Virus record (IMG/VR): IMGVR_UViG_3300032315_000486
Strand: one strand, 5' to 3'
Length of the DNA: 64,000 bases
Source: a virus
Taxonomy: Duplodnaviria > Heunggongvirae > Uroviricota > Caudoviricetes
Shown: positions 11,816 to 23,778 of the stretch, piece by piece
Position numbering within the stretch: the stretch's first letter is position 1
How the letters are laid out: each line of letters begins with the position of its first letter
Position numbers and translations under genes: made by a program
The notes under the pieces: model-generated
What the model was told of the DNA's origin: nothing
The model's input: the letters and a program-made list of their open reading frames with translations, nothing else
Databases searched by the model: none

Positions 11816-11818
11816 CAC

Positions 11819-12182: not shown

Positions 12183-12192
12183 AGTTCAGCAA
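12183..12192 (+). promoter_or_regulatory. leader dyad AGTTCAGCAA (copy 3, partial)
   Basis: cagttcagcaaaaaat immediately upstream of the degenerate tRNA at 12196. Confidence 0.25.
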
Positions 12193-12195
12193 AAA

Positions 12196-12270: not shown

Positions 12271-12405
12271 CTGAAAAAATATAACTAACTGCATAGTGTT
12301 CAACAGCTCCTCACGCTTGTATCTCGTTATACAAGGTTTTAGGGGGTGAGACCTCGCTAAATAGCAGTCAGACCAGCAAAAGCGTGAGGTTGGTCAATAA
12401 TATAT

Positions 12406-12488
12406 GCGGGTGTGGCGTAATTGGTAGCCGCACTAGATTTAGGTTCTAGCGAGTAATCGTGGGGGTTCGAGTCCCTTCACCCGCACCA
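12406..12488 (+). tRNA. tRNA-Leu (anticodon TAG), type II
   Basis: acceptor gcgggtg/cacccgc perfect, anticodon stem ctaga/tctag loop tttaggt, long variable arm, T-loop ttcgagt, CCA. Confidence 0.8.
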
Positions 12489-12496
12489 AATATTGT

Positions 12497-12572
12497 TTCT
12501 AGTTAGCTCAGTTGGTAGAGCAGCTGACTGTTAATCAGCGGGTCGCAGGTTCGAGCCCTGCACTAGGAGCCA
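12497..12572 (+). tRNA. tRNA-Asn (anticodon GTT)
   Basis: acceptor ttctagt/actagga, D gctcagttggtagagc, anticodon stem gctga/tcagc loop ctgttaa, T-arm gcaggttcgagccctgc, CCA. Confidence 0.8.
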
Positions 12573-12731
12573 AATCTCTAATCTGTGAATTGTCTTGTGT
12601 CTTATTAGAAATAGAACCTACTCCGCGAACAGGTTCGATAAGGTATAGTGAGCGGCACGGCGCTGCATTCATTGCTTTTTCTAATGCGTGACGTACCCTA
12701 AGGAGTAATCCAATACTGCAGGGCCCAAAAT

Positions 12732-12989
12732 ATGCAGAAAATGAAGATGATGTTGTGGCATCTTGACAAGACAATTCTCACATTAGAGGTAATGATGAAT
12801 ATACGACAACAAGCTGATTATGTAATATGGTCTACTCTACAGGGGGACGATTATGCGGTCGCTCTACGGTTTGTAGATCACTGTCAAAAAATGTCAGCAA
12901 TGTATGGAACTCCTATTGAAGAACTTATGCAAATTGTAAATACAAAACTAGCTGCAAATGTTTCAAGAGGTCAATCAGTTGACACTTAA
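12732..12989 (+). CDS. hypothetical protein
   Basis: 85-aa ORF. Confidence 0.3.
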   Translation: MQKMKMMLWHLDKTILTLEVMMNIRQQADYVIWSTLQGDDYAVALRFVDHCQKMSAMYGTPIEELMQIVNTKLAANVSRGQSVDT

Positions 12990-13251
12990 TATTACTGTAG
13001 ATCAGCTAGTTGATTTAGCTAAGCAGGCAGAATATAAAAACCCTATAGATTGGGGCGAACTTCCAGTAGAGGAAGATACTATCTATACTGCTTTTGCTCA
13101 TGCAATGTATAACGCATATATTAGAACTGATCCGGCTACTCGTGACCTAGTATTGCTAGCCAGCCTAATTAAACTTCAAACAGAGAACTTTGCACTGGGT
13201 CAACACCAAAAAATATTGCTCAACTCTATTGCAGCACTACAAGATAAATAA
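12958..13251 (+). CDS. hypothetical protein
   Basis: 97-aa ORF, overlaps previous by 32 nt. Confidence 0.35.
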   Translation: MFQEVNQLTLNITVDQLVDLAKQAEYKNPIDWGELPVEEDTIYTAFAHAMYNAYIRTDPATRDLVLLASLIKLQTENFALGQHQKILLNSIAALQDK

Positions 13252-13252
13252 G

Positions 13253-13341
13253 GATAGGTGGCAGAGTCTGGCTTATTGCACCGGTCTTGAAAACCGACGT
13301 ACCGACAGGTACCGTGAGTTCAAATCTCACCCTATCCGCCA
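13253..13341 (+). tRNA. tRNA-Ser (anticodon TGA), type II
   Basis: acceptor ggatagg/cctatcc perfect, anticodon loop cttgaaa, long variable arm, T-loop ttcaaat, CCA. Confidence 0.75.
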
Positions 13342-13359
13342 ATATGCAAAGGATAATAT

Positions 13360-13920
13360 ATGTCAGAATTAAAAATGCTAATAAATACCCCTTCAGATAT
13401 AAATGAACATCTAGAGGTAATGCACTCCTACGCTAAGAAGTGCGATCATATTACTGAGATGGGTGTACGAGATATAATATCTGCCTGGGCATGGATAGAA
13501 GCACACCCTAGTAAATTAGCGATGTATGATTTTGCTGATCCTCCATCTGATAGGTTAGCTCAAATACAAAATTATGCTGCTGAACACGGCATTGAATTAA
13601 CCTTTACAAAAGCAGATGTTCTAGAAGTAGAAATAGAAGAAACAGATCTATTATTTATTGATACTGCGCATTACTACGATCAACTCAAAAAAGAATTTGA
13701 GCTTCATGCTCCTAAGACTAGAAAATATATTATACTTCACGACACCGAATTTTTTAAGTATTTTGGAGAAGACTCTAAAGGAAACAAATACGATAGCGCA
13801 GGTACTAGGTATCGCGGTCTAGGAGCTGCAGTAGATGAGTTTCTTAGTGAAAATACTAATTGGACTTTAAAAGAACATCGCCCCAATAATTGGGGGCTTT
13901 CTGTTCTAGAAAGAAAATAA
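13360..13920 (+). CDS. class I SAM-dependent methyltransferase-like (CmcI/O-MTase-like) protein
   Basis: ITEMGVRDIIS (motif I-like) and LLFIDTAHYYDQ...YIILHD resembling the ID..H....L...Y..V..G.Y..V.D pattern of CmcI-family MTases. Confidence 0.35.
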   Translation: MSELKMLINTPSDINEHLEVMHSYAKKCDHITEMGVRDIISAWAWIEAHPSKLAMYDFADPPSDRLAQIQNYAAEHGIELTFTKADVLEVEIEETDLLFIDTAHYYDQLKKEFELHAPKTRKYIILHDTEFFKYFGEDSKGNKYDSAGTRYRGLGAAVDEFLSENTNWTLKEHRPNNWGLSVLERK

Positions 13921-14111
13921 CTTATTGCCTAAATCTCCGGTATTTGGTCTAGGACGTAATTGGAAGCACCGCCCTCGTGGTAGTTCTTACGCTCCATCGG
14001 CTGCTAACGTAAATCTGCGAGGCAAGAAATATCGACGCATGGGTTGCGGATGTTGTTTCTGTCTAGATTTTAGAGAAGACGCTGCTCGTAAAGAGCACGT
14101 AAAAGAAATAC

Positions 14112-14202
14112 GGAGCGTTGGCCGAGAGGCTTAAGGCAGCGGTTTGCTAAACCGTCGTACCTGAATAGGGTACCACTGGTTCGAATCCAGTACGCTCCGC
14201 CA
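14112..14202 (+). tRNA. tRNA-Ser (anticodon GCT), type II
   Basis: acceptor ggagcgt/acgctcc perfect, anticodon stem gcggt/accgt loop ttgctaa, long variable arm, T-arm actggttcgaatccagt, CCA. Confidence 0.8.
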
Positions 14203-14210
14203 ATGAAATT

Positions 14211-14286
14211 GGCTTGTTAGTCGAGCGGTCAAGACGCCTGCCTGTCACGCAGGAAATCACGGGTTCGATCCCCGTACAAGTCGCCA
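14211..14286 (+). tRNA. tRNA-Asp (anticodon GTC)
   Basis: acceptor ggcttgt/acaagtc, anticodon stem cctgc/gcagg loop ctgtcac, T-arm cgggttcgatccccg, CCA. Confidence 0.8.
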
Positions 14287-14302
14287 TAAAAGGAAAACAC
14301 AC

Positions 14303-14581
14303 ATGTCACACATTGTATACTTCGGACAAGAAGAAGATAAAACCGACAGTTCATTAGACCGCTGGAATCAGTTGATCTATGATTTGCAAGGTACTTGCAT
14401 CGAGTTAAATTCTTTTCTTGAACGACATAATGCAGAAGACCTAATCGACCATATACCTTTTCTAGAGTATCTAGATAATCACATTTTTCTATGTGACAGT
14501 TGTGGTTGGTGGTGTGAGCTGTCAGAAATGTCTGATGAAGGCGTGTGCAGTGATTGCTGCTATAATGAATACGAAGAATAA
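14303..14581 (+). CDS. zinc-ribbon protein (Cys-rich C-terminus)
   Basis: CDSCGWWCELSEMSDEGVCSDCC; aaggaaaacacacATG RBS. Confidence 0.45.
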   Translation: MSHIVYFGQEEDKTDSSLDRWNQLIYDLQGTCIELNSFLERHNAEDLIDHIPFLEYLDNHIFLCDSCGWWCELSEMSDEGVCSDCCYNEYEE

Positions 14582-14582
14582 T

Positions 14583-14658
14583 GGTTCTATAGCACTACGG
14601 TAGTGCAGCCGTGCCCTAACACGGTCGGAAGCAGGTTCAATTCCTGTTAGGACCACCA
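14583..14658 (+). tRNA. tRNA with non-canonical anticodon arm (8-nt or 6-nt loop; candidate anticodon CCT or CTA)
   Basis: acceptor ggttcta/taggacc, D gcac-tacggta-gtgc, T-arm gcaggttcaattcctgt, CCA; anticodon region gccgtgccctaacacggt folds only as 5-bp stem + 8-nt loop or 6-bp stem + 6-nt loop. Confidence 0.55.
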
Positions 14659-14841
14659 TAATCACCCACCTCTCGGCGATGTGGCGCCAGAGCTAGGCAA
14701 GGGGACGGATATAGGCATAGATAAAACCGCTCCACCAAATAAACTATAACATCAGGAGATACACTTTGTAGATTACTAAACCACCTTAGCCTTGATTAAT
14801 GCTTAAAGATAACGTATTTTAACATAATCAAGGAGATAAAA

Positions 14842-15309
14842 ATGTCTGTAGAACTAAAAATTAAATCTAAACATCTTAGCGTAGAAGCTCAAATCATTCG
14901 TTTTGAAGAACAAAAGCTACTCAAACAGTATCAGTGGTCCCTAGACAAATACACTAAAGCAGGAAACAACGATATGTATCCTCGTTGGAAAGATACCGCT
15001 TTTATGAGTTATTGCTCACTGAACAATCACCGTCGTTGGGACGTTCGTAATGAAAACCGTGCAACATTTCTAGCACGAGCTTACATTTCTGGTGTGCCGT
15101 ACAATTCAGTTGAGAAAAAACGCAAACCAGAAAACGAGCTTAAGTTTAAAACTTATATCTTTCCTCGTGTAGTAGCAATGGCTGCTAAGTATGGTAAAAT
15201 AAAAGTACCGTTAAAGATTTATGACAGAACAAAAGGTGGTTACGTAGATAATCCTGCACTTGCTAGGATTGCTAAAGACGTAACTCAATGGATTGAGACT
15301 ACTGCGTAA
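14842..15309 (+). CDS. hypothetical protein (155 aa)
   Basis: ORF with aaggagataaaaATG RBS. Confidence 0.5.
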   Translation: MSVELKIKSKHLSVEAQIIRFEEQKLLKQYQWSLDKYTKAGNNDMYPRWKDTAFMSYCSLNNHRRWDVRNENRATFLARAYISGVPYNSVEKKRKPENELKFKTYIFPRVVAMAAKYGKIKVPLKIYDRTKGGYVDNPALARIAKDVTQWIETTA

Positions 15310-15735
15310 GCAGTAGCAATCAAAGCCCAGTAGAGCCAGCGTAGCAAATCTACTTAGGATGGATACTGCAACTAATAACGTGTAGCAATACACATTATCA
15401 TGAATGGGTTGGATAGTATCGTTGAGGTCCACAGACCATCCAGTAACTAAATTGTGGATAGTATGCGATATGAATCCAATCACTGCTTACGGTAGTTAGC
15501 TCTGGTAAACTAAGCGTAAGCATTTCGCTCTAGATACCTATGTATAGCAGTCGCAAGACGGGTCACTCAATTCTAGATGTTAGACTCAAAGTGTGAGAGT
15601 CATTTATTATAAACGGCATTTATATCTTTCAAGATGCGGTTGCTAGTTCCGTGCCATAACTAGCCTAACACTCTATACCCAAGCGCGTTTTAGCGCCAAA
15701 ATAGCGGTCTTAAAATAGAGTGTTCCAGATAGATT

Positions 15736-15810
15736 GCGGAATTAGCTCAGTGGTAGAGCGCCTCGTTTACACCGAGGATGTCGGGAGTTCGACCCTCTCA
15801 TTCCGCACCA
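15736..15810 (+). tRNA. tRNA-Val (anticodon TAC)
   Basis: acceptor gcggaat/attccgc perfect, D gctcagtggtagagc, anticodon stem cctcg/cgagg loop tttacac, T-loop ttcgacc, CCA. Confidence 0.8.
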
Positions 15811-15830
15811 AATAAATTAGGAGAAGTACA

Positions 15831-16016
15831 TTGGAATCCCACAAAAGATCAATCGTCAAGTCTATAACTTGGCGAGTCATTGCCACGCTAATTGCAGCCT
15901 GGTGGGTGGGATTTCAGGTAGCTATTATAATGAATATAGTCCAGACTGTAGCGTACTACATACACGAACGTGTGTGGGTGCGTATCAATTGGGGCATGAA
16001 TAAGGGCACTCAGTAA
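15831..16016 (+). CDS. small membrane protein
   Basis: 61 aa, hydrophobic (ITWRVIATLIAAWWVGFQVAIIMNIV). Confidence 0.35.
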   Translation: MESHKRSIVKSITWRVIATLIAAWWVGFQVAIIMNIVQTVAYYIHERVWVRINWGMNKGTQ

Positions 16017-16189
16017 AGAGTCAAGATTGACAGCGCCACAAATCACATAGTGTGCGGTGATAATAAAGACGTTAGTCTGCGGAGTGTGAATCTCCAAGTG
16101 TCTACCAATTATGTCGGTACTCTTCGCGCGAAGATTGAGCTAAGTTAATGTGATAATCTGAAGCCGACAGCAACTAATAGAATCATTAC

Positions 16190-16236
16190 AGCAACTAATA
16201 AAAATGACTGGTTCGATTCCAGTACTCCCCACCACT
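16190..16236 (+). pseudogene. tRNA 3'-half remnant (T-arm + acceptor strand + CCA only)
   Basis: actggttcgattccagt-actcccc-a-cca; no complementary 5' acceptor (ggggagt), D- or anticodon arm upstream. Confidence 0.35.
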
Positions 16237-16535
16237 GGTACATTGGCTGAGGTGCGTAGCTCTTCGGAGTAGAAATCAGCATAACAGTGTATCTTTGACG
16301 GGAAGTATGGCAAGGTGCCGCTAAGAGCAATCTTAGCTTCCCCAATGATTCTGACAATTTTGAGGTAGGGAAAGCGTGCTATGCTAGCTAGATAGTACGG
16401 CAGAGTAATTAACTGCAAACGGAGCATGGGCACCTAAGAGGGTTATTCCTCTTGGCAGATACCGCACCGGCCTCAACTTAATTAATCTTGCTTGATAGTG
16501 TTTGATCTGTTATCTTGTATAAAAGGAGATAAATC

Positions 16536-17135
16536 GTGATCCACGTTCAAGGCAAAATTCCTCGCACAGTGTATGTAGCGTTCAGCGGCGGAGTTGACAG
16601 TGTTGCTGTTGTAGATTTTCTACGCCGCAACCACACCGTAGTTCTAGCGCACATCAACCACGGAAATGAAATTTCCTCGGCGGAGCAGGCTTTTGTAGAG
16701 CAGTTTGCTGAGAATCGTCAACTCCCTTTGCTACTCAAGCAAGGCAACGCTGATAAGCCGGCCGATGAATCTTGGGAAGAACACTGGCGTAATGAGCGTT
16801 ACCGTTTCCTGCATACTATTAACGGCACAGTAATCACTTGCCATCACCTCGACGATTGTGTTGAGACTTGGTTGTGGAATATGTGTAACGGGCGTGACCA
16901 GACTATCGCCTATCGTAATGTTAATGTAATTCGTCCATTCCGTACCACAAGAAAATCTGAATTTGTTGACTGGTATCAACGCAAGCAGCTCGCGTGGTAT
17001 GAAGATCCTACCAATGCTAACCCACAATTCGCTGTTCGCAACTACATCCGTCACGTGATGGTTCCTGCTGCAATGAAGGTTAACCCCGGCATTCACACTA
17101 CAATTCGCAATAAGCTGTTGCAAGAAAAAATTTAA
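16536..17135 (+). CDS. tilS: tRNA(Ile)-lysidine synthetase-like PP-loop ATPase (short TilS-like)
   Basis: GTG start with aaaggagataaatc RBS; PP-loop VAFSGGVDSVAV; CHHLDDCVETWLWNMCNG....IRPF matches the TilS motif HLDDQAET..LRLLRG....IRPLL. Confidence 0.65.
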   Translation: MIHVQGKIPRTVYVAFSGGVDSVAVVDFLRRNHTVVLAHINHGNEISSAEQAFVEQFAENRQLPLLLKQGNADKPADESWEEHWRNERYRFLHTINGTVITCHHLDDCVETWLWNMCNGRDQTIAYRNVNVIRPFRTTRKSEFVDWYQRKQLAWYEDPTNANPQFAVRNYIRHVMVPAAMKVNPGIHTTIRNKLLQEKI

Positions 17136-17170
17136 AATTGTTCTTGCCTATCCGCTGAAAATAACCTATA
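17130..17170 (+). promoter_or_regulatory. sigma70-like promoter with UP element (tttaaaattgttcTTGCCT-N17-TATATT)
   Basis: same tttaaaattgttcttgcc module as at 21735. Confidence 0.5.
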
Positions 17171-17171
17171 T

Positions 17172-17350
17172 TATATTTAACAAGGCAAAAGCCTTTTGGA
17201 GAGAAAAACAATGAACACCTGCATGATTAAGACCGAGCGTTTTTATCACAGCTCCAGTGGAGGGGCAAACTCGTGAAATGATAATTTCACCTGTTTGTTA
17301 GTGTTTGTTTACACCCCCTAGAATCTGAATGGTTTTAGGGGGTTTTTTAT
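17172..17350 (+). ncRNA. candidate small RNA (~180 nt) bounded by promoter and intrinsic terminator
   Basis: only a 20-aa ORF inside; hairpin aaggcaaaagcctt near 5' end; terminator acacccccta-N-tagggggttttttatt at 17323-17350. Confidence 0.35.
17323..17350 (+). terminator. rho-independent terminator
   Basis: cccccta...tagggggtttttta. Confidence 0.5.
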
Positions 17351-17351
17351 T

Positions 17352-17427
17352 GGTCGGGTGCTAGAATTGGTTATAGCGCGGATTGCAAATCCGTTGTATG
17401 TGGGTTCGAGTCCCATCCCTACCTCCA
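17352..17427 (+). tRNA. tRNA-Cys (anticodon GCA)
   Basis: acceptor ggtcggg/ccctacc (one mismatch), anticodon stem gcgga/tccgt loop ttgcaaa, T-arm gtgggttcgagtcccat, CCA. Confidence 0.65.
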
Positions 17428-17443
17428 AATTTAGGAGACTGTT

Positions 17444-17614
17444 ATGATAGCTTGGATTTACACTTACGACCTGGACAAATACATGCACCTGATGCGTGAT
17501 GAAGGATGTGACCCATCGGTAATTTCTCAGACTGACGATAAAAGTCATGTCGAAATGACCCTCAACGTAGCTTCCGAATGGAATATGTTGGGTCTCTGGT
17601 ACGAAATGGGCTAA
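17444..17614 (+). CDS. hypothetical small protein (56 aa)
   Basis: ttaggagactgttATG strong RBS, between two tRNAs. Confidence 0.45.
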   Translation: MIAWIYTYDLDKYMHLMRDEGCDPSVISQTDDKSHVEMTLNVASEWNMLGLWYEMG

Positions 17615-17622
17615 ATAATACG

Positions 17623-17697
17623 GTGTTGTAGCTCAGCTGGTAGAGCAGTAGACTCATATTCTATTGGTCGTAGGTTCAAGTCCTACCAACACCACCA
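17623..17697 (+). tRNA. tRNA-Met/Ile2 (anticodon CAT), copy 3
   Basis: acceptor ggtgttg/caacacc perfect, D gctcagctggtagagc, anticodon stem gtaga/tctat loop ctcatat, T-loop ttcaagt, CCA. Confidence 0.75.
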
Positions 17698-17930
17698 ATT
17701 AACTGTAATAATACGGAACTAACCAATGAAAAACCTGCCTAAAGAAGAAATCCTAGTAGATCTAAAGTTTATGCTAGAACAAAGCTACCTTGTGGCGGTA
17801 AGGGGGAATCATTGAAAGCATCATCGAAGCTGAACTGACAGACGTCTCTCCTGTGGTCTACGTGCTGTAAGAAACTGTTTGCTTGACAGGTTAGTTTCAG
17901 TTATATTGTTTATATGAGATAAAAAAAAAT

Positions 17931-18014
17931 GGGTTGGACGCCGCAAGGTGCGGCAGCGGACTGTAACTCCGTCGCTGAGAAGCACGCTAGGTTCGATTCC
18001 TAGTCAACCCACCA
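17931..18014 (+). tRNA. tRNA-Tyr (anticodon GTA), type II
   Basis: acceptor gggttgg/tcaaccc, anticodon stem gcgga/tccgt loop ctgtaac, long variable arm, T-arm ctaggttcgattcctag, CCA. Confidence 0.75.
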
Positions 18015-18031
18015 TACAACAAGGATTTTAA

Positions 18032-18313
18032 ATGTACTATCTTTACATTGTAAACTCTGTCAGTGATGTGTGCGATGAAGTCCCATATGAGAAACGTGAA
18101 TGGTGGTTATTAGAGCAAAAATCTGCTGACAAGCAGTATCTAATAAATATAGCCTCAGAACGTAAGTCTCCGTATTGGAGACACAAACTCGTATATGCTG
18201 AATACACTCTTAGCGACTTCTTTTACCCGCGTGCAGAAATTAAACGTAGAACAAACGCATCAAAAATGCTTAAAGCCACAGGATATGGAAATGAAACAAA
18301 AACAAGCACCTAA
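18032..18313 (+). CDS. hypothetical protein
   Basis: 93-aa ORF. Confidence 0.4.
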   Translation: MYYLYIVNSVSDVCDEVPYEKREWWLLEQKSADKQYLINIASERKSPYWRHKLVYAEYTLSDFFYPRAEIKRRTNASKMLKATGYGNETKTST

Positions 18314-18473
18314 GCCACGAAATCCTTTCGTGCAACATCTGGTGAAGCGCAAAAGTGGCGCCCACCAAAAACCTTACAAAACTGTTCGCAGAGATGCTAA
18401 GGTGGAAATGAAAAAAGACTACTCCGAAAAACACGACGATGTTTCTCCGAGTAGTCTTTGGATCGGTAGCTGA
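18285..18473 (+). CDS. small basic protein, weak ArfA-like (ribosome-rescue factor) resemblance
   Basis: MEMKQKQAPKPRNPFVQHLVKRKSGAHQKPYKTVRR resembles ArfA core (..NP.FRQRVVK.KKGKGSY.RK); larger ORF opens at 18195. Confidence 0.25.
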   Translation: MEMKQKQAPKPRNPFVQHLVKRKSGAHQKPYKTVRRDAKVEMKKDYSEKHDDVSPSSLWIGS

Positions 18474-18536
18474 GTTGGTTTAGCGATGGACTTTTAATCC
18501 GTGTCAACGTGGGTTCGAACCCCACCCGATTCACCA
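18460..18536 (+). tRNA. tRNA-Lys (anticodon TTT)
   Basis: acceptor ggatcgg/ccgattc, anticodon stem atgga/tccgt loop cttttaa, T-arm gtgggttcgaaccccac, CCA. Confidence 0.75.
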
Positions 18537-18709
18537 TTATTTTGACGTGTCTAGTAGCTGTGGTCAGTTTCTCTCTAATCGAGGTCAAACGTCCTTAATT
18601 CAGCTCTCGACGGCATCGGGATTGATCACCCACCGCCAAGATACGCTAGCAGTGAGATCCTGTAGTTCTAGAGCCTTACAGGAGTTCATACTAGACACTT
18701 CTAAATAAT

Positions 18710-18785
18710 GCCTATGTAGCTCAGTTGGTAGAGCAGTGCGCTGAAGACGCACGTGTCAGCGGTTCAATTCCGTTCATAGGCACCA
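18710..18785 (+). tRNA. tRNA-Phe (anticodon GAA)
   Basis: acceptor gcctatg/cataggc perfect, D gctcagttggtagagc, anticodon stem gtgcg/cgcac loop ctgaaga, T-loop ttcaatt, CCA. Confidence 0.8.
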
Positions 18786-19082
18786 TTACTTTAAATTATG
18801 CGTAAGACGCTCTTCAATAACAGCTATGTTTTGACGATTAACGGCAATAGCTTCTTTGTTTTGTTCGATTAGATAAACTAAATCTTGACGTAGTTTTTCT
18901 CTTGCAAGTTCAGCACCAGTATTAACTGCTTGTTTGTTATCATCTGTTACTACCAAACTAACTTTGGATCGTAACTCTTGAATTTCGCCTTGCATAGTGC
19001 CTATCACTGTTACCACATATATAACACCCGATGACAGTATAGGTAGTAAGGCTAGCAGCCCGTTTTTAAGAAAATCGTTCAT
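18786..19082 (-). CDS. N-terminal TM + coiled-coil protein (i-spanin-like topology)
   Basis: 98 aa; TM LLALLPILSSGVIYVVTVIG then heptad-rich periplasmic segment. Confidence 0.35.
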   Translation of the reverse strand: MNDFLKNGLLALLPILSSGVIYVVTVIGTMQGEIQELRSKVSLVVTDDNKQAVNTGAELAREKLRQDLVYLIEQNKEAIAVNRQNIAVIEERLTHNLK

Positions 19083-19094
19083 AAATAATTCCTT

Positions 19095-19409
19095 TTATAT
19101 TTTAGTGGTGTCCTCAACAGTAGCTGTTTCTTCTTCTTTTTTTCTAGATGCCGATCTAGAACTGGTCAACATAATACCTGACAGTGTTCCTGTTAAGAAT
19201 GTTGCAATAGGTTGGATTAGTTCAAAGAACTTCTGGTCATTAGGCGCTGAAGCATTCATTGGCTGAGTAACGTGTATTAGTGAATACAGCACAGCAAATA
19301 TTATTCCTGTTAGCGTAAATGATAGGCAGATTCCTACTATAAATTTAAGCTTGGCTTCAAGTAAATCTATATAATCTTCTTTTCTTATTTTACTCATTAG
19401 GTGTCTCAC
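19095..19409 (-). CDS. membrane protein
   Basis: 104 aa, two TM segments. Confidence 0.4.
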   Translation of the reverse strand: MRHLMSKIRKEDYIDLLEAKLKFIVGICLSFTLTGIIFAVLYSLIHVTQPMNASAPNDQKFFELIQPIATFLTGTLSGIMLTSSRSASRKKEEETATVEDTTKI

Positions 19410-19677
19410 TCGTGGCCGTTAGGTCACTACTAAATTCTAGAGTCGGAGAAACAGATTCACTGTACACCGATTCTGGTATATCTATAAGATATTTTGTGCA
19501 TAGACCCATTGCTTCACAAGCTGGCGGTTGACATTCTTCAGTCTGCCAGTTAGCAGGGTCCATACATGGATAGCGATACACGTCTTCACCAAATATTATA
19601 AAGTAAAAACATGTCAGTATTAGTATTACAGGTAAAGCTATATACATGATTAGTGATTTCATTTCCTTTCTCCGCAC
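19390..19677 (-). CDS. membrane-anchored/secreted Cys-rich protein
   Basis: N-terminal hydrophobic segment then CMDPANWQTEECQPPACEAMGLC. Confidence 0.4.
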   Translation of the reverse strand: MRRKEMKSLIMYIALPVILILTCFYFIIFGEDVYRYPCMDPANWQTEECQPPACEAMGLCTKYLIDIPESVYSESVSPTLEFSSDLTATSETPNE

Positions 19678-19821
19678 TATTATATTAGCACGATTTTACT
19701 GTAAAGACAACAGAATAGTTTTTAATAACCAAAAATGGTATACTGTTTTTTTGGTTTTGCTCATGAAATGAGCCGTGCCCCTGGGGTTGGGCATGTCAAA
19801 GCAATCATCCCACTGAATTTC

Positions 19822-19907
19822 TGTCGTATACTTCAGTTGGTAGAAGGCTGAGCTGATAACTCAGATGTCACTGGTTCGATCCCAGTTGCGACAACCAATG
19901 ATAACTT
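19822..19907 (+). tRNA. tRNA-Ile (anticodon GAT)
   Basis: acceptor tgtcgta/tgcgaca, D cttcagttggtagaagg, anticodon stem ctgag/ctcag loop ctgataa, T-arm actggttcgatcccagt, CCA. Confidence 0.75.
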
Positions 19908-19944
19908 GCTCTCTTGCTTTAGATGAGCTATTATATATTATAAC

Positions 19945-20021
19945 GTCCCCATAGATTACGATGGCTAGATCATCGCCCTTTCAAGGCGAAGAAACGGGTT
20001 CGACACCCGTTGGGGATACCA
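19945..20021 (+). tRNA. tRNA-Glu (anticodon TTC)
   Basis: acceptor gtcccca/tggggat, anticodon stem tcgcc/ggcga loop ctttcaa, T-arm acgggttcgacacccgt, CCA. Confidence 0.75.
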
Positions 20022-20035
20022 ATAGAAAGCCGACT

Positions 20036-20305
20036 ATGCCTTTAGTTTTAAACGCTCGTAAAAGCGGTATGTTAGTTGACAACAGTGTGTATGTAGGTAG
20101 ACCTTCTGAGTTTGGCAATCCTTTTAAAGTAGGAGTTGACGGTAACAAAGTAGAGGTCATCGAAAAATACGAACAACATGTTCGTTCAAATGCAGAACTG
20201 CTAGCACTAGTCAAGGCAGAGTTGAGAGGGAAGCATCTAATTTGTTGGTGTGCCCCCGATTTTTGCCACGCGGACGTATTGCTTAAAATTGCTAATGAGG
20301 AATAA
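20036..20305 (+). CDS. DUF4326-family protein
   Basis: C-terminal KHLICWCAPDFCHADVLL motif typical of DUF4326; the 19961 start in the ORF track overlaps tRNA-Glu, so the ATG at 20036 is preferred. Confidence 0.5.
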   Translation: MPLVLNARKSGMLVDNSVYVGRPSEFGNPFKVGVDGNKVEVIEKYEQHVRSNAELLALVKAELRGKHLICWCAPDFCHADVLLKIANEE

Positions 20306-20306
20306 A

Positions 20307-20843
20307 ATGGATTATAACAAATATATACTCCCTGTTAAATATCTAGTATTCCTTGATATTGATGGGGTTTTTACTTCGGCCCGTGTGCAGTACGCAAGTG
20401 CTAATCCACACGACTTATGGAATAAGTTCGACCCTATTGCTATTGAGTTTATGAATAGGATTCATGATCGAGTTGACGGTGTTTACTTCATGCTGATCTC
20501 TACCTGGAAAGACCACCTAGTTACGGATGATGTAATGCTAGAGTATTGGATTACGTCCAGTTTTAGAAATGCAGGTTTCCGTGGAGAATTTAATCGTCCT
20601 TGGAAGACTAACCATCAGAACATCTATAATAACAGAGAAACTCGTGCTCACGAGATTAGAGACTTCATCAAGGGCAGAGATTTAAAAGACTATATCATCT
20701 TTGACGATTCTGACTATGAGTTTGATAAAATTCTAGGTAAGCGTCGCCACATTAAAACTGACAGTGAGAATGGCTTACTGTTTAAACACATGAGAAATGC
20801 TATGAGCATCATCGGAGAATGGGAGCCAAAAAATGGAACCTGA
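20307..20843 (+). CDS. HAD-superfamily hydrolase-like protein
   Basis: motif I LVFLDIDGVF (DxDG) near N-terminus; later STWKD and FDDSDYEF acidic motif. Confidence 0.45.
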   Translation: MDYNKYILPVKYLVFLDIDGVFTSARVQYASANPHDLWNKFDPIAIEFMNRIHDRVDGVYFMLISTWKDHLVTDDVMLEYWITSSFRNAGFRGEFNRPWKTNHQNIYNNRETRAHEIRDFIKGRDLKDYIIFDDSDYEFDKILGKRRHIKTDSENGLLFKHMRNAMSIIGEWEPKNGT

Positions 20844-21486
20844 AACAGTATGGAATAAATCAGATCACAATAGTTGGATGCGAAGCGCACTTATAGATGC
20901 TATGCGCTCTGGAAAACCTCTACCAAGCCGCGATATTGTAGGCTCTCGCTTTAAAGATGGAGACTTTGTACGTCTTAAGAATGGTACTTCTCCTATGAGA
21001 GTGGTTGAGGCTAAAGGCTATGCAATTCGTTGTGAGTATATGTCTAGCGGCAAGCAAATGGCATTTAGAAGCCAAGACGACTTTGTTATATACGAAGCCG
21101 ACACTGCAAAAGAATTAAATGAAATCACAGTAAAAAAGGAAACTGAAATGACTGTTAAACTATATAAAACCGTAGACGGCAATCGTTATGGCGAATACAA
21201 AGCTAACGATGGCGACAAAATCCTCCTGTTGATGCAGGACTCAAATACCTATGAAGCCTTCACCCCAGACGCAATCAAGCGTGTTATGGCTTTCACTTTC
21301 GACGTAATGTTCAATGGCCAAGATAAGGTTTACTCTTATCTAGGTACTGAAGGCGAAGTTGCTGTAGGCGACTTGCTGCTAACTGACGAAATGAGCATCG
21401 CTCGCGTTGTAGCTGTCGGTACCGAAAGCGAAACTGCTACCAAGCGTTTCAAAGGTGTTAAACTAGCCGCTGTGCGTCTAGGCTAA
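20833..21486 (+). CDS. hypothetical protein (217 aa)
   Basis: ORF overlapping upstream stop by 11 nt. Confidence 0.5.
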   Translation: MEPETVWNKSDHNSWMRSALIDAMRSGKPLPSRDIVGSRFKDGDFVRLKNGTSPMRVVEAKGYAIRCEYMSSGKQMAFRSQDDFVIYEADTAKELNEITVKKETEMTVKLYKTVDGNRYGEYKANDGDKILLLMQDSNTYEAFTPDAIKRVMAFTFDVMFNGQDKVYSYLGTEGEVAVGDLLLTDEMSIARVVAVGTESETATKRFKGVKLAAVRLG

Positions 21487-21493
21487 TACCGCT

Positions 21494-21568
21494 GCCCCAG
21501 TAGCTCAGCGACAGAGCAGCGCTTTAGTAAAGCGAAGGTCCGCGGTTTGATCCCGTGCTGGGGCACCA
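21494..21568 (+). tRNA. tRNA-Thr? (anticodon AGT, A34)
   Basis: acceptor gccccag/ctggggc perfect, D gctcagcgacagagc, anticodon stem gcgct/agcga (27:43 mismatch) loop ttagtaa, T-loop tttgatc, CCA. Confidence 0.6.
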
Positions 21569-21574
21569 TATAAC

Positions 21575-21649
21575 GTCTCTATAGCTCAATGGATAGAGCA
21601 CCGCGCTACGAACGCGATGATGTGGGTTCGACTCCTACTAGGGACTCCA
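21575..21649 (+). tRNA. tRNA-Arg (anticodon ACG)
   Basis: acceptor gtctcta/tagggac, D gctcaatggatagagc, anticodon stem ccgcg/cgcga loop ctacgaa, T-arm gtgggttcgactcctac, CCA. Confidence 0.75.
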
Positions 21650-21655
21650 ATATAT

Positions 21656-21731
21656 TCTGACATAGTGTTAGCGGACAGCACGTCTGATTGTGGATCAGAT
21701 AGGAGTGGTTCGAATCCACTTGTCAGGACCA
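21656..21731 (+). tRNA. tRNA-His (anticodon GTG)
   Basis: acceptor tctgaca/tgtcagg, D gtgt-tagcggaca-gcac, anticodon stem tctga/tcaga loop ttgtgga, T-arm agtggttcgaatccact, CCA; no encoded G-1. Confidence 0.7.
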
Positions 21732-21809: not shown

Positions 21810-22256
21810 ATGGAACAAGACAATGAAAATCTTATTGACCAACTGAAGGTAGCTCTTGCTACAGCTTTCACTTTTTACATGAAAGCACACAACTATCACA
21901 TCAACGTAGAGTGCAGAAACTTTTCTGAAGTTCATGAGTTTTTTGGTGAGATCTACGAAGAAGTTCACGGGTATACAGACAGTATCGCAGAGCTGATTCG
22001 CACGTTAGGCACCTACAGCCCATTCTCGTATTCTAGGTTCATAGAACTATCTAATATCTCAGAAGAGACTACAGTACCTACTGTAGATATTATGTTCCAG
22101 AATCTGTGTTCGGACAACGAAACACTACTTGCAACTCTATACAGCACTCGCAAAGCTGCTGAAGATGTTGGAAACTATGGCATAACTAATCATCTAGAAG
22201 AGCTGATTACTGCCACACAAAAAAGACACTGGATGCTAAAAGCACATAAAATGTGA
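21810..22256 (+). CDS. Dps-like ferritin-fold DNA-binding protein
   Basis: YMKAHNYHINVECRNFSEVHEFFGEIYEEVHGYTDSIAELIRTLG resembles the Dps ferroxidase-site region (H.W..G..F..LH..F.E.Y......D.IAERI..LG). Confidence 0.55.
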   Translation: MEQDNENLIDQLKVALATAFTFYMKAHNYHINVECRNFSEVHEFFGEIYEEVHGYTDSIAELIRTLGTYSPFSYSRFIELSNISEETTVPTVDIMFQNLCSDNETLLATLYSTRKAAEDVGNYGITNHLEELITATQKRHWMLKAHKM

Positions 22257-22356
22257 TAAGCGTCGGTTTGTTTCAGCATAAAATTTATCTATCACATTGA
22301 ACAAGCGGAAGACGGGAGTCTCCGCAACAAACCAGAAATCTTTGAAAGGAAACTAA

Positions 22357-23778
22357 ATGAACACTTTTGCTAACGCAGTCCTAAATGACAGCATCACTCC
22401 TCGTACCGCTAATGGTATGCGTGCACACGCTACCACTTCTAGTGCAGTACTCGATCTATTCGGTATGATCGGCTCGGCTCGTGGCAAAGATGTGTCACAG
22501 CATTTCATGGCTGCTATCGGCGAGAACGAAGAACTTGCCGTTCGCACTCTGCTTTGGGCTCGTGACATCCGTGGAGGTGCTGGTGAGCGCCAGACATTCC
22601 GTAATCTGCTAGCTGCCTTAGAGCGCGCTAATGCTTCTCTTGCTGGCCGTATCATGCACAAAGTTCCAGAGCTTGGTCGCTGGGACGACTTGTTCACTTA
22701 CGCTGAACACTTCAACCGTACTGCTGCTATGGAGATGATTCGTCAAGCCCTTGCGGACAATAATGGTCTGTGTGCAAAGTGGATGCCTCGTAAGGGTCCA
22801 GTTGCTGTTGAGTTGACTCGGTTCCTTGGCCTATCGCCTAAAGCTTATCGTAAGCTGATAGTTGGCCTGACTCAGGTTGTTGAAACTCAAATGTGTGCTA
22901 AGACTTGGACTGAGATTAATTTCTCACACGTTCCTAGCGTTGCTAGCGCTCGCTACCAGAAGGCATTTGGTCGTAACGCCTCCGAAGCGTATACTCGTTA
23001 TATTCAGGAGCTTCAGAAGCCGCAGGCTGAGCGTGATCCTAAGGTCAAAATCAACGCAAGTGCAGTTTACCCACATGACGTTGTAAAAAGCGTCGCTAAT
23101 GGTAATGCTGCTGTAGCCAACGAACAGTGGAATGCTCTTCCAAACTACGTTGGCGATGCAATGGTATTCCCCATGGTTGACGTTTCTGGTTCGATGGGTA
23201 GCCTAGCATACTCTCGTCCTGGCCACGTTCAGCCAATCGAAGTTGCCGTTGCTCTGGGTCTATACCTTAGTGCCAAGAACTCCGGTCCTTTCAAAGACCT
23301 GTTCCAGACTTTCTCTGGTCGTCCGACTATGGTAAAGCTGACTGGTTCTTTGAGTGATCGTATTCGTACCATGAGCACTGCTCATTGGGAAATGAATACT
23401 AATCTGCACGCTGCTTTTGATCAGATTCTGCAAGTTGCTGTAAACGGTAACGCAGATCCTGCAGATATGCCTCAGATTCTTCTGATCCTTAGCGATATGC
23501 AGTTTGACCGTTGCACTCGCTATGACGACAGTGCGCTGCAGATGATTGCTCGCAAGTACGAGCAGGCTGGATATGCGATGCCAAAGATCGTGTTCTGGAA
23601 TCTGAACTCTGGCTACGGTAACGTACCTGTTCAGTTCGATAGTCGCGGTACTGCACACGTCTCTGGTTTTAGCCCAGCAATCATGAATAGCGTTCTGGCA
23701 AACGATCTTGAAGACTTCACGCCTTACAATGTAATGCTGAAGACTCTGATGGACGATCGCTATGCTTTCGCTGCATGA
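22357..23778 (+). CDS. Ro60/Rsr-like TROVE + vWA (MIDAS) domain protein (DUF2828-like)
   Basis: N-terminal LDLFGMIGSARGKD and LLWARDIRGGAGERQTFRNLL resemble TROVE motifs (FLCFGSEGG.., LLYARDERG.G.G.R..FR); MIDAS DVSGSMG plus downstream LILSDMQFD. Confidence 0.5.
   Translation: MNTFANAVLNDSITPRTANGMRAHATTSSAVLDLFGMIGSARGKDVSQHFMAAIGENEELAVRTLLWARDIRGGAGERQTFRNLLAALERANASLAGRIMHKVPELGRWDDLFTYAEHFNRTAAMEMIRQALADNNGLCAKWMPRKGPVAVELTRFLGLSPKAYRKLIVGLTQVVETQMCAKTWTEINFSHVPSVASARYQKAFGRNASEAYTRYIQELQKPQAERDPKVKINASAVYPHDVVKSVANGNAAVANEQWNALPNYVGDAMVFPMVDVSGSMGSLAYSRPGHVQPIEVAVALGLYLSAKNSGPFKDLFQTFSGRPTMVKLTGSLSDRIRTMSTAHWEMNTNLHAAFDQILQVAVNGNADPADMPQILLILSDMQFDRCTRYDDSALQMIARKYEQAGYAMPKIVFWNLNSGYGNVPVQFDSRGTAHVSGFSPAIMNSVLANDLEDFTPYNVMLKTLMDDRYAFAA

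What the first reader, a model, noticed from the sequence alone, without database searches (positions are those of the whole stretch)
21810..23778. Ro60/Rsr-like TROVE-vWA protein and Dps-like protein at the end of the tRNA array; degenerate tRNA-like elements as Y-RNA candidates
ORF 22357-23778 combines TROVE-like N-terminal motifs (LDLFGMIGSARG, LLWARDIRGGAGER) with a vWA MIDAS motif (DVSGSMG), the architecture of Ro60/Rsr (DUF2828-like). In bacteria Rsr works with tRNA-like Y RNAs, recalled from established knowledge. This window carries several non-canonical tRNA-like elements: 5907-5982 (with G3:U70), 12050-12125, 12196-12270 and the 16190-16236 3' half. These could be Y-RNA-like partners rather than dead tRNAs. 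A Dps-like ferritin-fold gene sits immediately upstream under its own promoter.
Basis: partly seen in the sequence, partly recalled or inferred. Interest (0 to 1): 0.7.

Follow-up and report, generated by a model that had tools for sequence, protein, structure and literature searches.

The report
Phage Ro60-like protein with partner RNAs
This phage encodes a ring-shaped Ro60-like RNA-binding protein and at least six small structured RNAs that share one conserved "handle". The same protein-plus-RNA pairing recurs in very different phages, pointing to a widespread, undescribed viral RNA-protein particle that imitates parts of tRNA.

Summary

Three short RNAs join them: 10473-10539, 10589-10638 and 11729-11793. 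All six share one module: a 7-bp stem joining the two ends, a 3-nt linker, CAGCAA, and a 3' G.

Element 12054-12167 is a YrlA-type permuted tRNA mimic; 17 of its 29 pairs covary.

The module tracks the protein gene:
- 80 viral loci chosen only by the protein carry 198 modules on the gene strand against 3 opposite.
- All nine cultured phages examined, from Proteobacteria, Firmicutes and Actinobacteria hosts, have it next to or near the gene.
- 11 of 30 loci found through the RNA alone have the gene 13-466 nt upstream.

Most likely this is a divergent Ro60/Y-RNA particle acting on tRNA. Binding is untested.

The Ro60 likeness was already noted for a Felix O1-type relative, with Y RNAs only guessed at. 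The RNA family appears new, and its handle matches the Dictyostelium Class I RNA motif.

The parts
22357..23778 (+). Ro60-like ring + vWA protein (Pfam DUF2828 + DUF7788; phrog_850 'RNA-binding protein')
21810..22256 (+). Distant Dps/ferritin-fold protein directly upstream, probably co-transcribed with the Ro-like gene
   Evidence: PF00210 at 76.2 bits; phrog_3636; NCBIfam Dps models at 35-55 bits, below cut-offs. Promoter-like site at 21747-21775. Dps-like genes also lie near the homologous gene in S13 and RSP15.
12054..12167 (+). Long Y-like RNA 1. Layout: terminal 8-bp stem, CUA-CAGCAA handle, 5' hairpin, then a permuted tRNA elbow (T arm, closed acceptor-like hairpin, D arm). YrlA-type.
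   Evidence: Rfam YrlA at 30 bits. In 23 distinct homologues 96.2% of cells pair and 17 of 29 pairs change on both sides; 0 of 500 shuffles reach this. Model R1 scores it 121 bits.
12176..12273 (+). Long Y-like RNA 2. Layout: terminal stem, GUU-CAGCAA handle, then a normal-order tRNA-like body with a 5-bp acceptor and a 4-bp T stem. The anticodon triplet varies between relatives.
   Evidence: Rfam tRNA at 37.8 bits; ARAGORN does not call it. In 12 distinct homologues 100% of cells pair and 7 of 16 pairs change on both sides. Caught by the strict module scan.
16178..16353 (+). Long Y-like RNA 3. Layout: 10-bp terminal stem, UUA-CAGCAA handle, T arm, acceptor-like strands ACUCCCC/GGGAAGU separated by an inserted hairpin, and further hairpins.
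   Evidence: MFE -57.1 kcal/mol, z -4.1. Caught by the strict scan. Homologues in L152, L147, L139, L002 and L129 show compensatory changes in the terminal stem and T arm.
11729..11793 (+). Short Y-like RNA (65 nt): UAGGAUGG-CUA-CAGCAA ... CCAUCCUG, with an anticodon-arm-like inner hairpin
   Evidence: Strict scan; R1 at 22 bits; conserved in 10 or more related contigs; inner hairpin found.
10473..10539 (+). Short Y-like RNA (67 nt): UUGGAUGA-GUU-CAGCAA ... UCAUCCAG
   Evidence: Strict scan; conserved in L152, L147, L124, L139, L133 and L156. A promoter-like site at 10434-10462 ends 10 nt upstream.
10589..10638 (+). Short Y-like RNA (50 nt): UAGGAUAA-GUU-CAGCAA ... UUAUCCUG
   Evidence: Strict scan; conserved in L133, L156 and L168. 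L168 carries a compensatory A-U to G-C change in the stem.
22265..22333 (+). Possible degenerate module in the leader of the Ro-like gene: 8-bp stem, 1-nt linker, CAGCAUAA. Low confidence.
   Evidence: MFE z -3.3. The intergenic region is 95% identical to L002, against 83% for the protein. R1 gives only 12 bits. The geometry differs, so the strict scan did not catch it.
20250..20843 (+). HAD_SAK_2 protein (HAD domain of 'Swiss army knife' RNA-repair proteins); neighbourhood context
   Evidence: PF18143 at 55.2 bits. It is conserved next to the Dps and Ro-like genes in L001-L003.
4316..21731 (+). tRNA array (27 tRNAs) in which the Y-like RNAs are embedded, on the same strand
   Evidence: ARAGORN and Rfam

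Best explanation
The window encodes a divergent Ro60/Y-RNA ribonucleoprotein system.

Shown:
- The 473-aa DUF2828/DUF7788 protein has the Ro60 architecture, a helical ring closed by a vWA domain with an intact MIDAS site.
- The phage encodes at least six small structured RNAs on the same strand inside its tRNA operon.
- Each RNA has a terminal 7-bp stem joining its 5' and 3' ends, followed on the 5' side by a 3-nt linker and the invariant CAGCAA, and on the 3' side by a G.
- This module co-occurs with DUF2828 genes across unrelated phages, usually within 500 nt and always on the gene's strand.

Inferred:
- The stem-plus-CAGCAA handle is the binding site for the Ro-like ring. It would play the part of the stem plus CGAA/GNCGAA motif of canonical Y RNAs.
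- The RNAs are cut out of the tRNA operon transcript when the flanking tRNAs are processed.
- The variable body displays a tRNA part: an anticodon arm in many short relatives, a T/D elbow in permuted order in the long YrlA-type RNAs, or a whole tRNA-like body.
- That body tethers or decoys tRNA-recognising enzymes, such as an exoribonuclease like PNPase, RNA-repair enzymes or host anticodon nucleases.
- The particle would then serve tRNA/RNA surveillance, repair or counter-defence during infection.
For: Fold:
- AF2 model has pLDDT 92.8 and pTM 0.91.
- The best, though non-significant, profile hits in the PDB are all TROVE/Ro60 entries.
- The MIDAS residues and many Arg/Lys of the helical part are invariant or nearly so.

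RNA structure:
- Element 1: 17 of 29 pairs change on both sides and 96% of cells pair, against 21-38% when partners are slid.
- Element 2: 100% paired.
- Twenty short elements from nine phages: the terminal stem is 98.3% paired, against 57.6% with swapped partners. The distance from the 5' end to CAGCAA is 11 nt in 19 of 20.

Linkage of RNA and gene:
- 80 IMG/VR loci chosen by protein alone: 198 modules on the gene strand, 3 on the other; 71 of 80 loci are positive; 115 modules lie within 500 nt upstream.
- Nine neighbourhoods (229 kb): 35 modules, all on the gene strand, against 2.8 expected.
- Of 30 loci retrieved by the RNA pattern alone, 11 have the gene ending 13-466 nt upstream.
- None of 119 background viral loci has the gene.
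- R1 scores: Felix O1 41.2 bits, RSP15 35.8, S13 33.6, nt-1 29.5; background at most 17.6.

tRNA mimicry:
- YrlA-like permuted elbow.
- 51 of 112 short elements carry an anticodon-arm-like hairpin, against 1.9 expected.

Context:
- HAD_SAK_2 lies nearby in the window.
- RtcB, an RNA ligase and a phosphoesterase lie downstream of the gene in A511.

Literature:
- The TROVE Ro60 of Thermus phage phiLo binds two adjacent phage Yrl RNAs and host PNPase (PMC12135203).
- Bas63 gp130 is Ro60-like and counters the Ppl defence system (PMC11482910).
Against: - No binding or expression data exist for any member of this RNA family.
- No TROVE profile match appears even at E<=10. The helical part is shorter than in Ro60, and a closed ring with a cavity was not inspected.
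- In this window the best RNAs lie 6-12 kb upstream of the gene, beyond the 4-kb criterion used for YrlA.
- Element 1 reaches only 30 bits against the YrlA threshold of 69 and lacks the GNCGAA motif.
- The D arm and the 3' AACAAAC of element 1 were part of the search pattern, so their invariance carries no information.
- Most double changes in element 2 reflect a single split between two subtypes.
- The functional step (tether, decoy or repair) is inference only.
Confidence: 0.7

Rival explanations
1. The module RNAs are real but independent of the protein. They would be spacer, processing or insulator elements, or free-standing sRNAs, of phage tRNA operons. They sit near DUF2828 genes only because both live in tRNA arrays.
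For: - In the window, S13, Felix O1 and RSP15 the elements lie between tRNAs.
- In the window the gene and the best RNAs are 6-12 kb apart.
- No binding data exist.
Against: - In Crossroads and the Staphylococcus phage the three RNAs abut the gene with no tRNA array around them.
- In the 80 protein-selected loci 115 of 198 modules lie within 500 nt upstream of the gene.
- The T5 tRNA region, which carries many stable RNAs and no DUF2828 gene in the 30 kb examined, has no module on the tRNA strand.
Confidence: 0.15
2. The repeats act at the DNA level, for example as promoters or terminators, homing-endonuclease or recombination sites, or a mobile miniature element that spreads in tRNA arrays.
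For: - Several copies occur per genome with nearly identical 5' ends.
- HNH and homing endonuclease genes are common in these arrays.
Against: - Strand bias is absolute: 198 against 3, and 35 against 0.
- Stems keep pairing through compensatory changes and use G-U pairs, which only matter in RNA.
- The interiors fold into tRNA-like arms with canonical T and D loops.
Confidence: 0.05
3. The tRNA-like elements are decaying or aberrant tRNA genes, and the protein is a vWA/MIDAS protein-interaction factor unrelated to RNA.
For: - Element 2 passes the Rfam tRNA threshold.
- 5907-5979 and 14583-14658 are odd tRNAs.
Against: - Covariation shows selection for structure.
- The arm order of element 1 is permuted, which cannot arise by simple decay.
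Confidence: 0.05

Closest known systems
Ro60 (TROVE2) / bacterial Rsr with Y RNAs, including the TROVE Ro60 of Thermus phage phiLo with Yrl1/Yrl2 (PDB 1YVP, 2NVO, 9L5Y)
   Same: - Helical ring plus C-terminal vWA domain with MIDAS.
[quoted passage not shown]
- Several Y RNAs per genome.
- An RNA-repair neighbourhood: RtcB in A511, as in the Salmonella rsr-yrlBA-rtcBA operon (recalled from established knowledge).
   Different: - No TROVE sequence-profile match, and only 11-16% identity in the structural alignments.
- The protein is about 60 residues shorter than Xenopus Ro60.
- The RNA motif is (U)UA-CAGCAA at a fixed 3-nt distance from a 7-bp stem, instead of GNCGAA/CGAA.
- The RNAs are embedded in tRNA arrays and number up to six or more per genome.
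YrlA (Rfam RF02553), the tRNA-mimicking bacterial Y RNA (Chen et al. 2014, PMC4201824)
   Same: Element 12054-12167 and its relatives in Felix O1, RSP15, nt-1 and Crossroads share with YrlA:
- a permuted tRNA-like domain (T arm, closed acceptor-like hairpin, D arm);
- an enclosing terminal stem.
   Different: - The scores are 21-39 bits against a threshold of 69.
- The protein-binding motif is different.
- The partner protein belongs to another Pfam family.
Dictyostelium Class I RNAs (Rfam RF01414; Kjellin et al. 2021, PMC7919456)
   Same: - About 60 nt, with a short stem joining the 5' and 3' ends.
- The motif CCUUACAGCAA follows directly after the 5' strand, the interior is variable and A/U-rich, and the 3' end reads CUG.
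- The phage short elements read N-7 bp-UUA/CUA/UAA-CAGCAA ... 7 nt-G.
- RF01414 is the Rfam family hit for six phage elements at 16-22 bits.
   Different: - All scores lie below the threshold of 41.5, and the window's own short elements gave no hit at E<=10.
- Class I RNAs are eukaryotic, have a DUSE promoter, and are reported as unique to dictyostelids.
- Their only named partner is the RRM protein Rnp1A.
- Whether Dictyostelium has a DUF2828 protein could not be tested here.
Bas63 (Felixounavirus) gp130, from the PhageMaP preprint PMC11482910
   Same: - It is described there as structurally Ro60-like and as lying directly upstream of the tRNA genes. This is the arrangement of the Felix O1 homologue ORF86.
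- The authors speculate that some annotated tRNAs are Y RNAs.
- They report that the gene counters the Ppl defence system.
   Different: - No RNA partner was identified there.
- That gp130 is the DUF2828 orthologue is my inference from genus and synteny, not a test.

Membership tests
Ro60 / TROVE-vWA proteins | Sequence-profile match to the TROVE domain (Pfam PF05731) | tested here: not met
   No TROVE hit at E<=0.01 or at E<=10. A family profile searched against PDB sequences ranks TROVE/Ro60 entries first, but only at E 0.09-0.24.
Ro60 / TROVE-vWA proteins | Fold: alpha-helical repeat ring followed by a vWA domain | tested here: met
Ro60 / TROVE-vWA proteins | MIDAS motif DxSxS...T...D in the vWA domain | tested here: met
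   D275, S277, S279, T348 and D380 are invariant in 134 sequences.
Ro60 / TROVE-vWA proteins | Y-RNA genes next to the gene on the same strand | tested here: met
   Met for the family. In this window the clear RNAs lie 6-12 kb upstream on the same strand, and only a degenerate copy at 22265-22333 abuts the gene.
Ro60 / TROVE-vWA proteins | Binds Y RNA and misfolded RNA | not testable with these tools
   Needs RIP/CLIP, EMSA or a structure.
Pfam DUF2828 (PF11443) + DUF7788 (PF25043); PHROG 850 | Profile scores above the curated cut-offs | tested here: met
   73.7 bits against a cut-off of 29, and 162.7 against 27.1. phrog_850 matches at E 1.4e-144 over the full length.
YrlA (Rfam RF02553) | Score at or above the gathering threshold (69 bits) | tested here: not met
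   30 bits for 12081-12154, covering model positions 20-89 only. Relatives score 21.6 bits (Crossroads) and 38.9 bits (L198).
YrlA (Rfam RF02553) | Permuted tRNA-like domain (T arm, closed acceptor-like hairpin, D arm) inside a stem formed by the 5' and 3' ends | tested here: met
   The cmscan alignment shows the layout. The terminal stem, T arm and hairpin covary. The D arm could not be assessed because it was part of the search pattern.
YrlA (Rfam RF02553) | GNCGAAN0-1G motif near the 5' end (Chen et al. 2014) | tested here: not met
   The sequence reads CUACAGCAAAAAG at that place.
Dictyostelium Class I RNA (Rfam RF01414) | Score at or above the gathering threshold (41.5 bits) | tested here: not met
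   Phage short elements score 16.2-22.4 bits. The window's short elements gave no hit at E<=10.
Dictyostelium Class I RNA (Rfam RF01414) | About 60 nt, terminal stem, motif CCUUACAGCAA directly after the 5' strand, 3' CUG | tested here: met
   Twenty phage short elements measure 52-81 nt. They have a 7-bp stem, a 3-nt linker, CAGCAA, and a final G that in most follows C-U (...CUG). The motif description comes from PMC7919456. This is a match of design, not proof of homology.
Dps (DNA-binding ferritin-like proteins) | Ferritin-like four-helix domain; Dps equivalog score | tested here: inconclusive
   PF00210 is met at 76.2 bits. NCBIfam Dps models score 35-55 bits against cut-offs of 114-300. 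Ferroxidase residues were not examined.
tRNA (for element 12176-12273) | Cloverleaf with a 7-bp acceptor stem and a usable 3' end | tested here: not met
   The Rfam tRNA match (37.8 bits) covers model positions 3-68 only, and ARAGORN does not call it. The acceptor has 5 bp and the T stem 4 bp. The ends are extended into the module stem.

The most novel reading that the evidence does not exclude
The phage stem-UUA-CAGCAA RNAs and the Class I RNAs of dictyostelid amoebae are the same kind of RNA: ligands of DUF2828-type Ro60 paralogues. Pfam DUF2828 is, to my recollection, a family of eukaryotes and viruses; here I only saw it cited in plant papers and in mimivirus-like scaffolds. If this reading is right, the Class I RNAs would gain a protein partner and a Y-RNA-like role. 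They are abundant, of unknown mechanism, and thought unique to Dictyostelia. The system would then span phages, possibly giant viruses, and eukaryotes.
Probability: 0.25. Interest if true: 0.9.

Novelty: new variant of a known kind. Interest (0 to 1): 0.8.

Why it matters
DUF2828/DUF7788 proteins are very common in phages: 710 phage records and about 6000 clusters at 50% identity. One relative has been reported to counter a bacterial defence system. No RNA partner has been described for any of them.

A defined RNA handle gives three things:
- A precise binding hypothesis that can be tested directly.
- An annotation rule for hundreds of unannotated or mis-annotated 'tRNA' loci in phage genomes.
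- A view of phage tRNA arrays as also encoding tRNA-part mimics, which bears on the contest between phages and host tRNA-cleaving defences.

The match to the Dictyostelium Class I RNA motif makes an old open question, what those RNAs bind and do, testable.

Tried and rejected
Searches that gave nothing useful:
- A phmmer search of the protein against PDB sequences gave nothing meaningful.
- Megablast of the locus against phage genomes gave no match.
- A 14-mer scan of viral contigs returned only chance matches. Those loci were reused as 1.07 Mb of background.
- Searching the literature for the 9-mer returned only primers and barcodes.

Analyses that proved unreliable:
- A loose 'any 7-bp stem + CAGCAA' scan is unspecific, at 10 hits per 100 kb in background. 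It was replaced by the fixed-geometry scan.
- MAFFT shifted the T arm of element 2 by one column, so that arm was left out of the count.
- MAFFT also split the 3' strands of the short elements, so no short-module covariance model was built. The pairs were counted by position instead.
- R1 hits at 11250-11356 and 21505-21620 are artefacts of adjacent tRNA pairs.

Candidates rejected or left uncertain:
- 5907-5979 is rejected as a Y-RNA candidate because it has no module.
- 8842-9036 is a strict-scan hit inside an ORF and is judged chance.
- 22265-22333 is kept only as a low-confidence variant.

Resources not available:
- The afdb50 fold library was not available.
- Avesson et al. 2011 is not held.
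- As a result the Dictyostelium protein link could not be tested.

Control with a gap:
- T5 served as a control for its 30-kb tRNA region only. The rest of its genome was not checked for DUF2828.
Full report
**1. Observation**

ORF 22357-23778 (+, 473 aa) and ORF 21810-22256 (+, 148 aa) exist as stated, and the quoted peptide motifs are in the translation.
- The large ORF matches Pfam DUF7788 (162.7 bits) and DUF2828 (73.7 bits). The small ORF matches Ferritin PF00210 (76.2 bits).
- PHROGs files the large ORF under phrog_850 'RNA-binding protein' at full length, E 1.4e-144.
- NCBIfam Dps models match the small ORF only below their cut-offs. It is a distant Dps/ferritin.
- A promoter-like site lies at 21747-21775, but such sites are no more frequent here than in shuffles.
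- The window carries 27 tRNAs at 4316-21731, all on the + strand. It looks like a large phage. An identical copy of the protein and close relatives sit on metagenome contigs of up to 166 kb with the same gene order.

**2. The protein**

The family is very large.
- At least 7999 database proteins match at E<1e-5.
- There are 6042 clusters at 50% identity.
- 710 phage records hold a match. They come from Escherichia/Salmonella (Felix O1-like), Mycobacterium, Vibrio, Listeria, Staphylococcus, Campylobacter, Enterococcus, Bacillus and others.
- Depositors call it 'RNA-binding protein', 'Ro-like RNA binding protein', 'DUF2828 protein' or 'vWFA protein'.

Sequence methods do not reach Ro60.
- Pfam shows no TROVE hit even at E<=10.
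- A 134-sequence profile searched against PDB sequences ranks TROVE/Ro60 entries first, but only at E 0.09-0.24.

Structure does reach Ro60.
- An AlphaFold model built on the 134-sequence alignment has pLDDT 92.8 and pTM 0.91.
- The MIDAS residues D275, S277, S279, T348 and D380 are invariant. So is the motif region R69-R78 with several Arg/Lys.

I conclude that this is a Ro60-fold paralogue outside the TROVE sequence family. This has been noted before for relatives:
- SEA-PHAGES annotations call them Ro-like.
- The PhageMaP preprint describes Bas63 gp130 as Ro60-like, shows that it counters the Ppl defence, and guesses that some neighbouring tRNA genes are Y RNAs (PMC11482910).

**3. The RNAs in the window**

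*Element 1 (12054-12167)*
- Rfam in E-value mode gave a sub-threshold YrlA hit at 12081-12154: 30 bits against a threshold of 69.
- The alignment shows the YrlA layout: T arm, closed hairpin, D arm.
- Its flanks pair, AGGUUGG with CCAACCU.
- A pattern taken from its 3' half retrieved about 30 true homologues from viral and metagenome contigs, 23 of them distinct.
- On their alignment the proposed structure is 96.2% paired, and 17 of 29 pairs change on both sides. The structure comprises an 8-bp terminal stem, a 5' hairpin, the T arm, an acceptor-like hairpin and the D arm.
- No shuffle of 500 reaches this, and slid partners pair at only 21-38%.
- The D arm and the AACAAAC tract were in the search pattern, so they say nothing either way.

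*Element 2 (12176-12273)*
- It is a normal-order tRNA-like body that passes the Rfam tRNA threshold at 37.8 bits, but ARAGORN does not call it.
- It has a 5-bp acceptor and a 4-bp T stem, and it is enclosed by AGAAUCAG/CUGAUUCU.
- Twelve distinct homologues fall into two subtypes. They are 100% paired in the terminal stem, D arm and anticodon arm, with 7 of 16 pairs changed on both sides.
- The anticodon triplet varies (UCU, GCG, AUU, UGU, UCC) while the rest of the loop stays fixed.

*Other elements*
It folds with z -4.1 and is conserved, with compensatory changes in its terminal stem and T arm.
- Three short elements (10473-10539, 10589-10638 and 11729-11793) are also conserved in relatives.
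- 5907-5979 is an odd tRNA without the shared module.

**4. The shared module**

All six elements begin with one nucleotide, then a 7-nt stem strand, a 3-nt linker and CAGCAA. All end with the complementary 7 nt followed by G. Examples are UAGGUUGG-CUA-CAGCAA ... CCAACCUG and UAGGAUGG-CUA-CAGCAA ... CCAUCCUG.

The same module lies on the strand of the DUF2828 gene in every cultured phage neighbourhood I fetched:
- Cronobacter S13 (T4-like) has five or more. Two are annotated as 121- and 113-nt 'tRNAs' lying 0.5 kb downstream of the gene. In those the module replaces the anticodon arm of an otherwise normal tRNA.
- Felix O1 has three short elements and one long YrlA-type element, 0.3-1.2 kb downstream.
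- Vibrio phage nt-1 has the module as well.
- Listeria A511 has three directly upstream of the gene, with RtcB, an RNA ligase and a phosphoesterase downstream.
- Mycobacteriophage Crossroads has three directly downstream, between two terminator-like hairpins.
- Ralstonia RSP15 has six.
- A Staphylococcus phage has three directly downstream, and a Campylobacter phage has two directly upstream.

Across 20 short elements from these nine phages (counting the window's own phage) the stem is 98.3% paired, against 57.6% with swapped partners. Each position shows two to four pair types. CAGCAA starts 11 nt from the 5' end in 19 of 20.

**5. Is the association more than chance?**

- A loose scan is unspecific, so I fixed the geometry.
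- In 229 kb of neighbourhoods there are 35 hits, all on the gene strand. Background is 13 hits on both strands of 1.07 Mb of unrelated viral loci, which gives 2.8 expected.
- None of those background loci encodes DUF2828.
- The T5 tRNA region has many annotated stable RNAs and no DUF2828 gene within the 30 kb examined. It has no module on the tRNA strand.
- Model R1, built from element 1, scores Felix O1 at 41.2 bits, RSP15 at 35.8 and 27.1, S13 at 33.6, nt-1 at 29.5 and Crossroads at 23.1. Nothing in the background exceeds 17.6.
- Two independent selections agree.
  - RNA first: of the 30 loci found by the RNA pattern alone, 11 carry a DUF2828 gene ending 13-466 nt upstream on the same strand.
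  - Protein first: in 80 IMG/VR loci picked only by encoding a relative of 51-71% identity, with flanks of 5 kb or less, there are 198 modules on the gene strand and 3 on the other.
  - In that protein-first set 71 of 80 loci are positive, and 115 modules lie within 500 nt upstream.
  - Lengths there are bimodal at 51-71 nt and 86-195 nt.

**6. What the RNA bodies look like**

- The long forms carry a tRNA elbow in permuted order (YrlA-type) or a whole tRNA-like body.
- Of 112 distinct short elements, 51 contain an anticodon-arm-like hairpin: a stem of at least 5 bp and a 7-nt loop with U at position 2 and a purine at position 6. Shuffled interiors give 1.9.
- The 'anticodons' are diverse: UGU, UUU, GCA, GAA, GUU, GGA, GUC and others.

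**7. Mechanism**

*Shown:*
- a Ro60-fold protein;
- a family of structured RNAs with a fixed handle;
- very tight genomic linkage between the two.

*Inferred by analogy:*
- The handle is the docking site for the ring, and the tRNA-like bodies recruit or decoy tRNA-recognising enzymes. Two analogies support this. Canonical Ro60 binds the stem-plus-motif of Y RNAs (Chen et al. 2014, PMC4201824). The phiLo Ro60 binds two adjacent Yrl RNAs carrying a CGAA motif and recruits host PNPase (PMC12135203).
- The RNA-repair genes nearby and the reported anti-Ppl phenotype of Bas63 gp130 fit a role in RNA surveillance, repair or counter-defence. These genes are HAD_SAK_2 in the window, and RtcB, ligases and phosphoesterases in A511 and RSP15.
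- Overexpressing the LeBron homologue is moderately toxic to M. smegmatis (PMC13148394).

I put 0.7 on the particle itself, meaning that the protein binds these RNAs. I put less, about 0.4, on any specific downstream function.

**8. Comparison with known families**

- This works like a Ro60/Y-RNA system, but it fails the sequence tests for TROVE, for YrlA (30 bits against 69, and no GNCGAA motif) and for tRNA.
- Unexpectedly, the Rfam family that matches the short phage elements is Dicty_Class_I_RNA (RF01414). Two elements each in Crossroads, Felix O1 and the Staphylococcus phage score 16-22 bits, against a threshold of 41.5.
- The Rfam consensus for that family is a terminal stem, then CCUUACAGCAA, a variable A/U-rich interior, and a 3' CUG. 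This is the same design (PMC7919456).
- Class I RNAs are reported as unique to dictyostelids and have no known mechanism.
- Whether Dictyostelium has a DUF2828 protein could not be tested: the library was unavailable and the key paper is not held. I keep this as the most novel reading not excluded.

**9. Verdict**

The Ro60 likeness of the protein is already known. The RNA family, its handle and its near-universal linkage to DUF2828 genes appear to be undescribed: there is no Rfam family above threshold and no paper in the library. It is best classed as a new variant of the Ro60/Y-RNA kind.

Noticed in passing
window 39404-39692 (+): Rfam finds a permuted (two-piece) tmRNA: RF04321 at 81.7 bits for 39440-39648, and alpha_tmRNA at 59.9 bits. 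ARAGORN did not report a tmRNA.
   Followed up: no
window 14583-14658 (+); L002 2393-2467: ARAGORN calls a tRNA of undetermined identity with a 6-nt anticodon loop, CCCUAA (Rfam tRNA 45.9 bits). The syntenic tRNA in the related contig has a CUA anticodon and is called 'Pyl', which suggests an amber-suppressor-type tRNA in this phage group.
   Followed up: partly
window 5907-5979 (+): A tRNA-like element (Rfam 40.9 bits, anticodon loop CUUGCAA) has an aberrant T arm and folds no better than shuffles (z -0.6). It has no CAGCAA module, so it is probably a degenerate tRNA rather than a Y-like RNA.
   Followed up: partly
window 12224-12230 (anticodon loop of element 12176-12273) and homologues in L002, L124, L140, L149: The three 'anticodon' positions change between otherwise 92-96% identical copies (UCU, GCG, AUU, UGU, UCC), while the flanking loop bases CU..AA stay fixed.
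   Followed up: partly
L159 (Cronobacter phage S13) 21896-22016 and 22026-22138: Two features annotated 'tRNA-Ser' (121 nt) and 'tRNA-OTHER' (113 nt) look chimeric. They have a normal acceptor stem plus (A/G)CCA, D arm and T arm. The anticodon arm is replaced by a hairpin CGCAAACU-GAYA-AGUUUGU followed by AUU-CAGCA. That is the module in the opposite circular permutation.
   Followed up: partly
L168-L247 (80 IMG/VR loci) and window 11729-11793: Nearly half of the short module RNAs hold an anticodon-arm-like hairpin with diverse 'anticodons': 51 of 112 against 1.9 expected. This suggests mimicry of particular tRNA anticodon arms.
   Followed up: partly
L163 9534-9595 and 9677-9737; L160 10717-10783 and 10884-10941; L166 6533-6595 and 6610-6669: Short phage elements give repeated weak hits to the Rfam Dictyostelium Class I RNA family (16-22 bits, threshold 41.5). 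They share the stem + UUACAGCAA + 3' CUG design.
   Followed up: partly
L165 (phage T5) 10285-13950, minus strand: The T5 tRNA region carries seven annotated stable RNAs of unknown function (RNAI, III, IV, 1, 2, 2H, 3). Some are tRNA-like with terminal stems, but none has the CAGCAA module.
   Followed up: partly
window 16166-16199 (+): The 13-mer ACAGCAACUAAUA occurs twice, 21 nt apart. The second copy is the handle of element 16178-16353; the first may be the remnant of another module.
   Followed up: no
window 10356-11234 and 11391-11818 (+): Two stretches inside the tRNA array have no + strand ORF of 60 aa or more. Each holds short module RNAs and further unexplained sequence. A promoter-like site at 10434-10462 sits just before element 10473.
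   Followed up: no
L002 14031-20071 (relative of the window): Downstream of the Ro-like gene the related contig carries an NMN transporter, an AAA_28 ATPase, an NMNAT-NUDIX gene and a NAMPT gene. Together these form an NAD+ salvage cluster.
   Followed up: no
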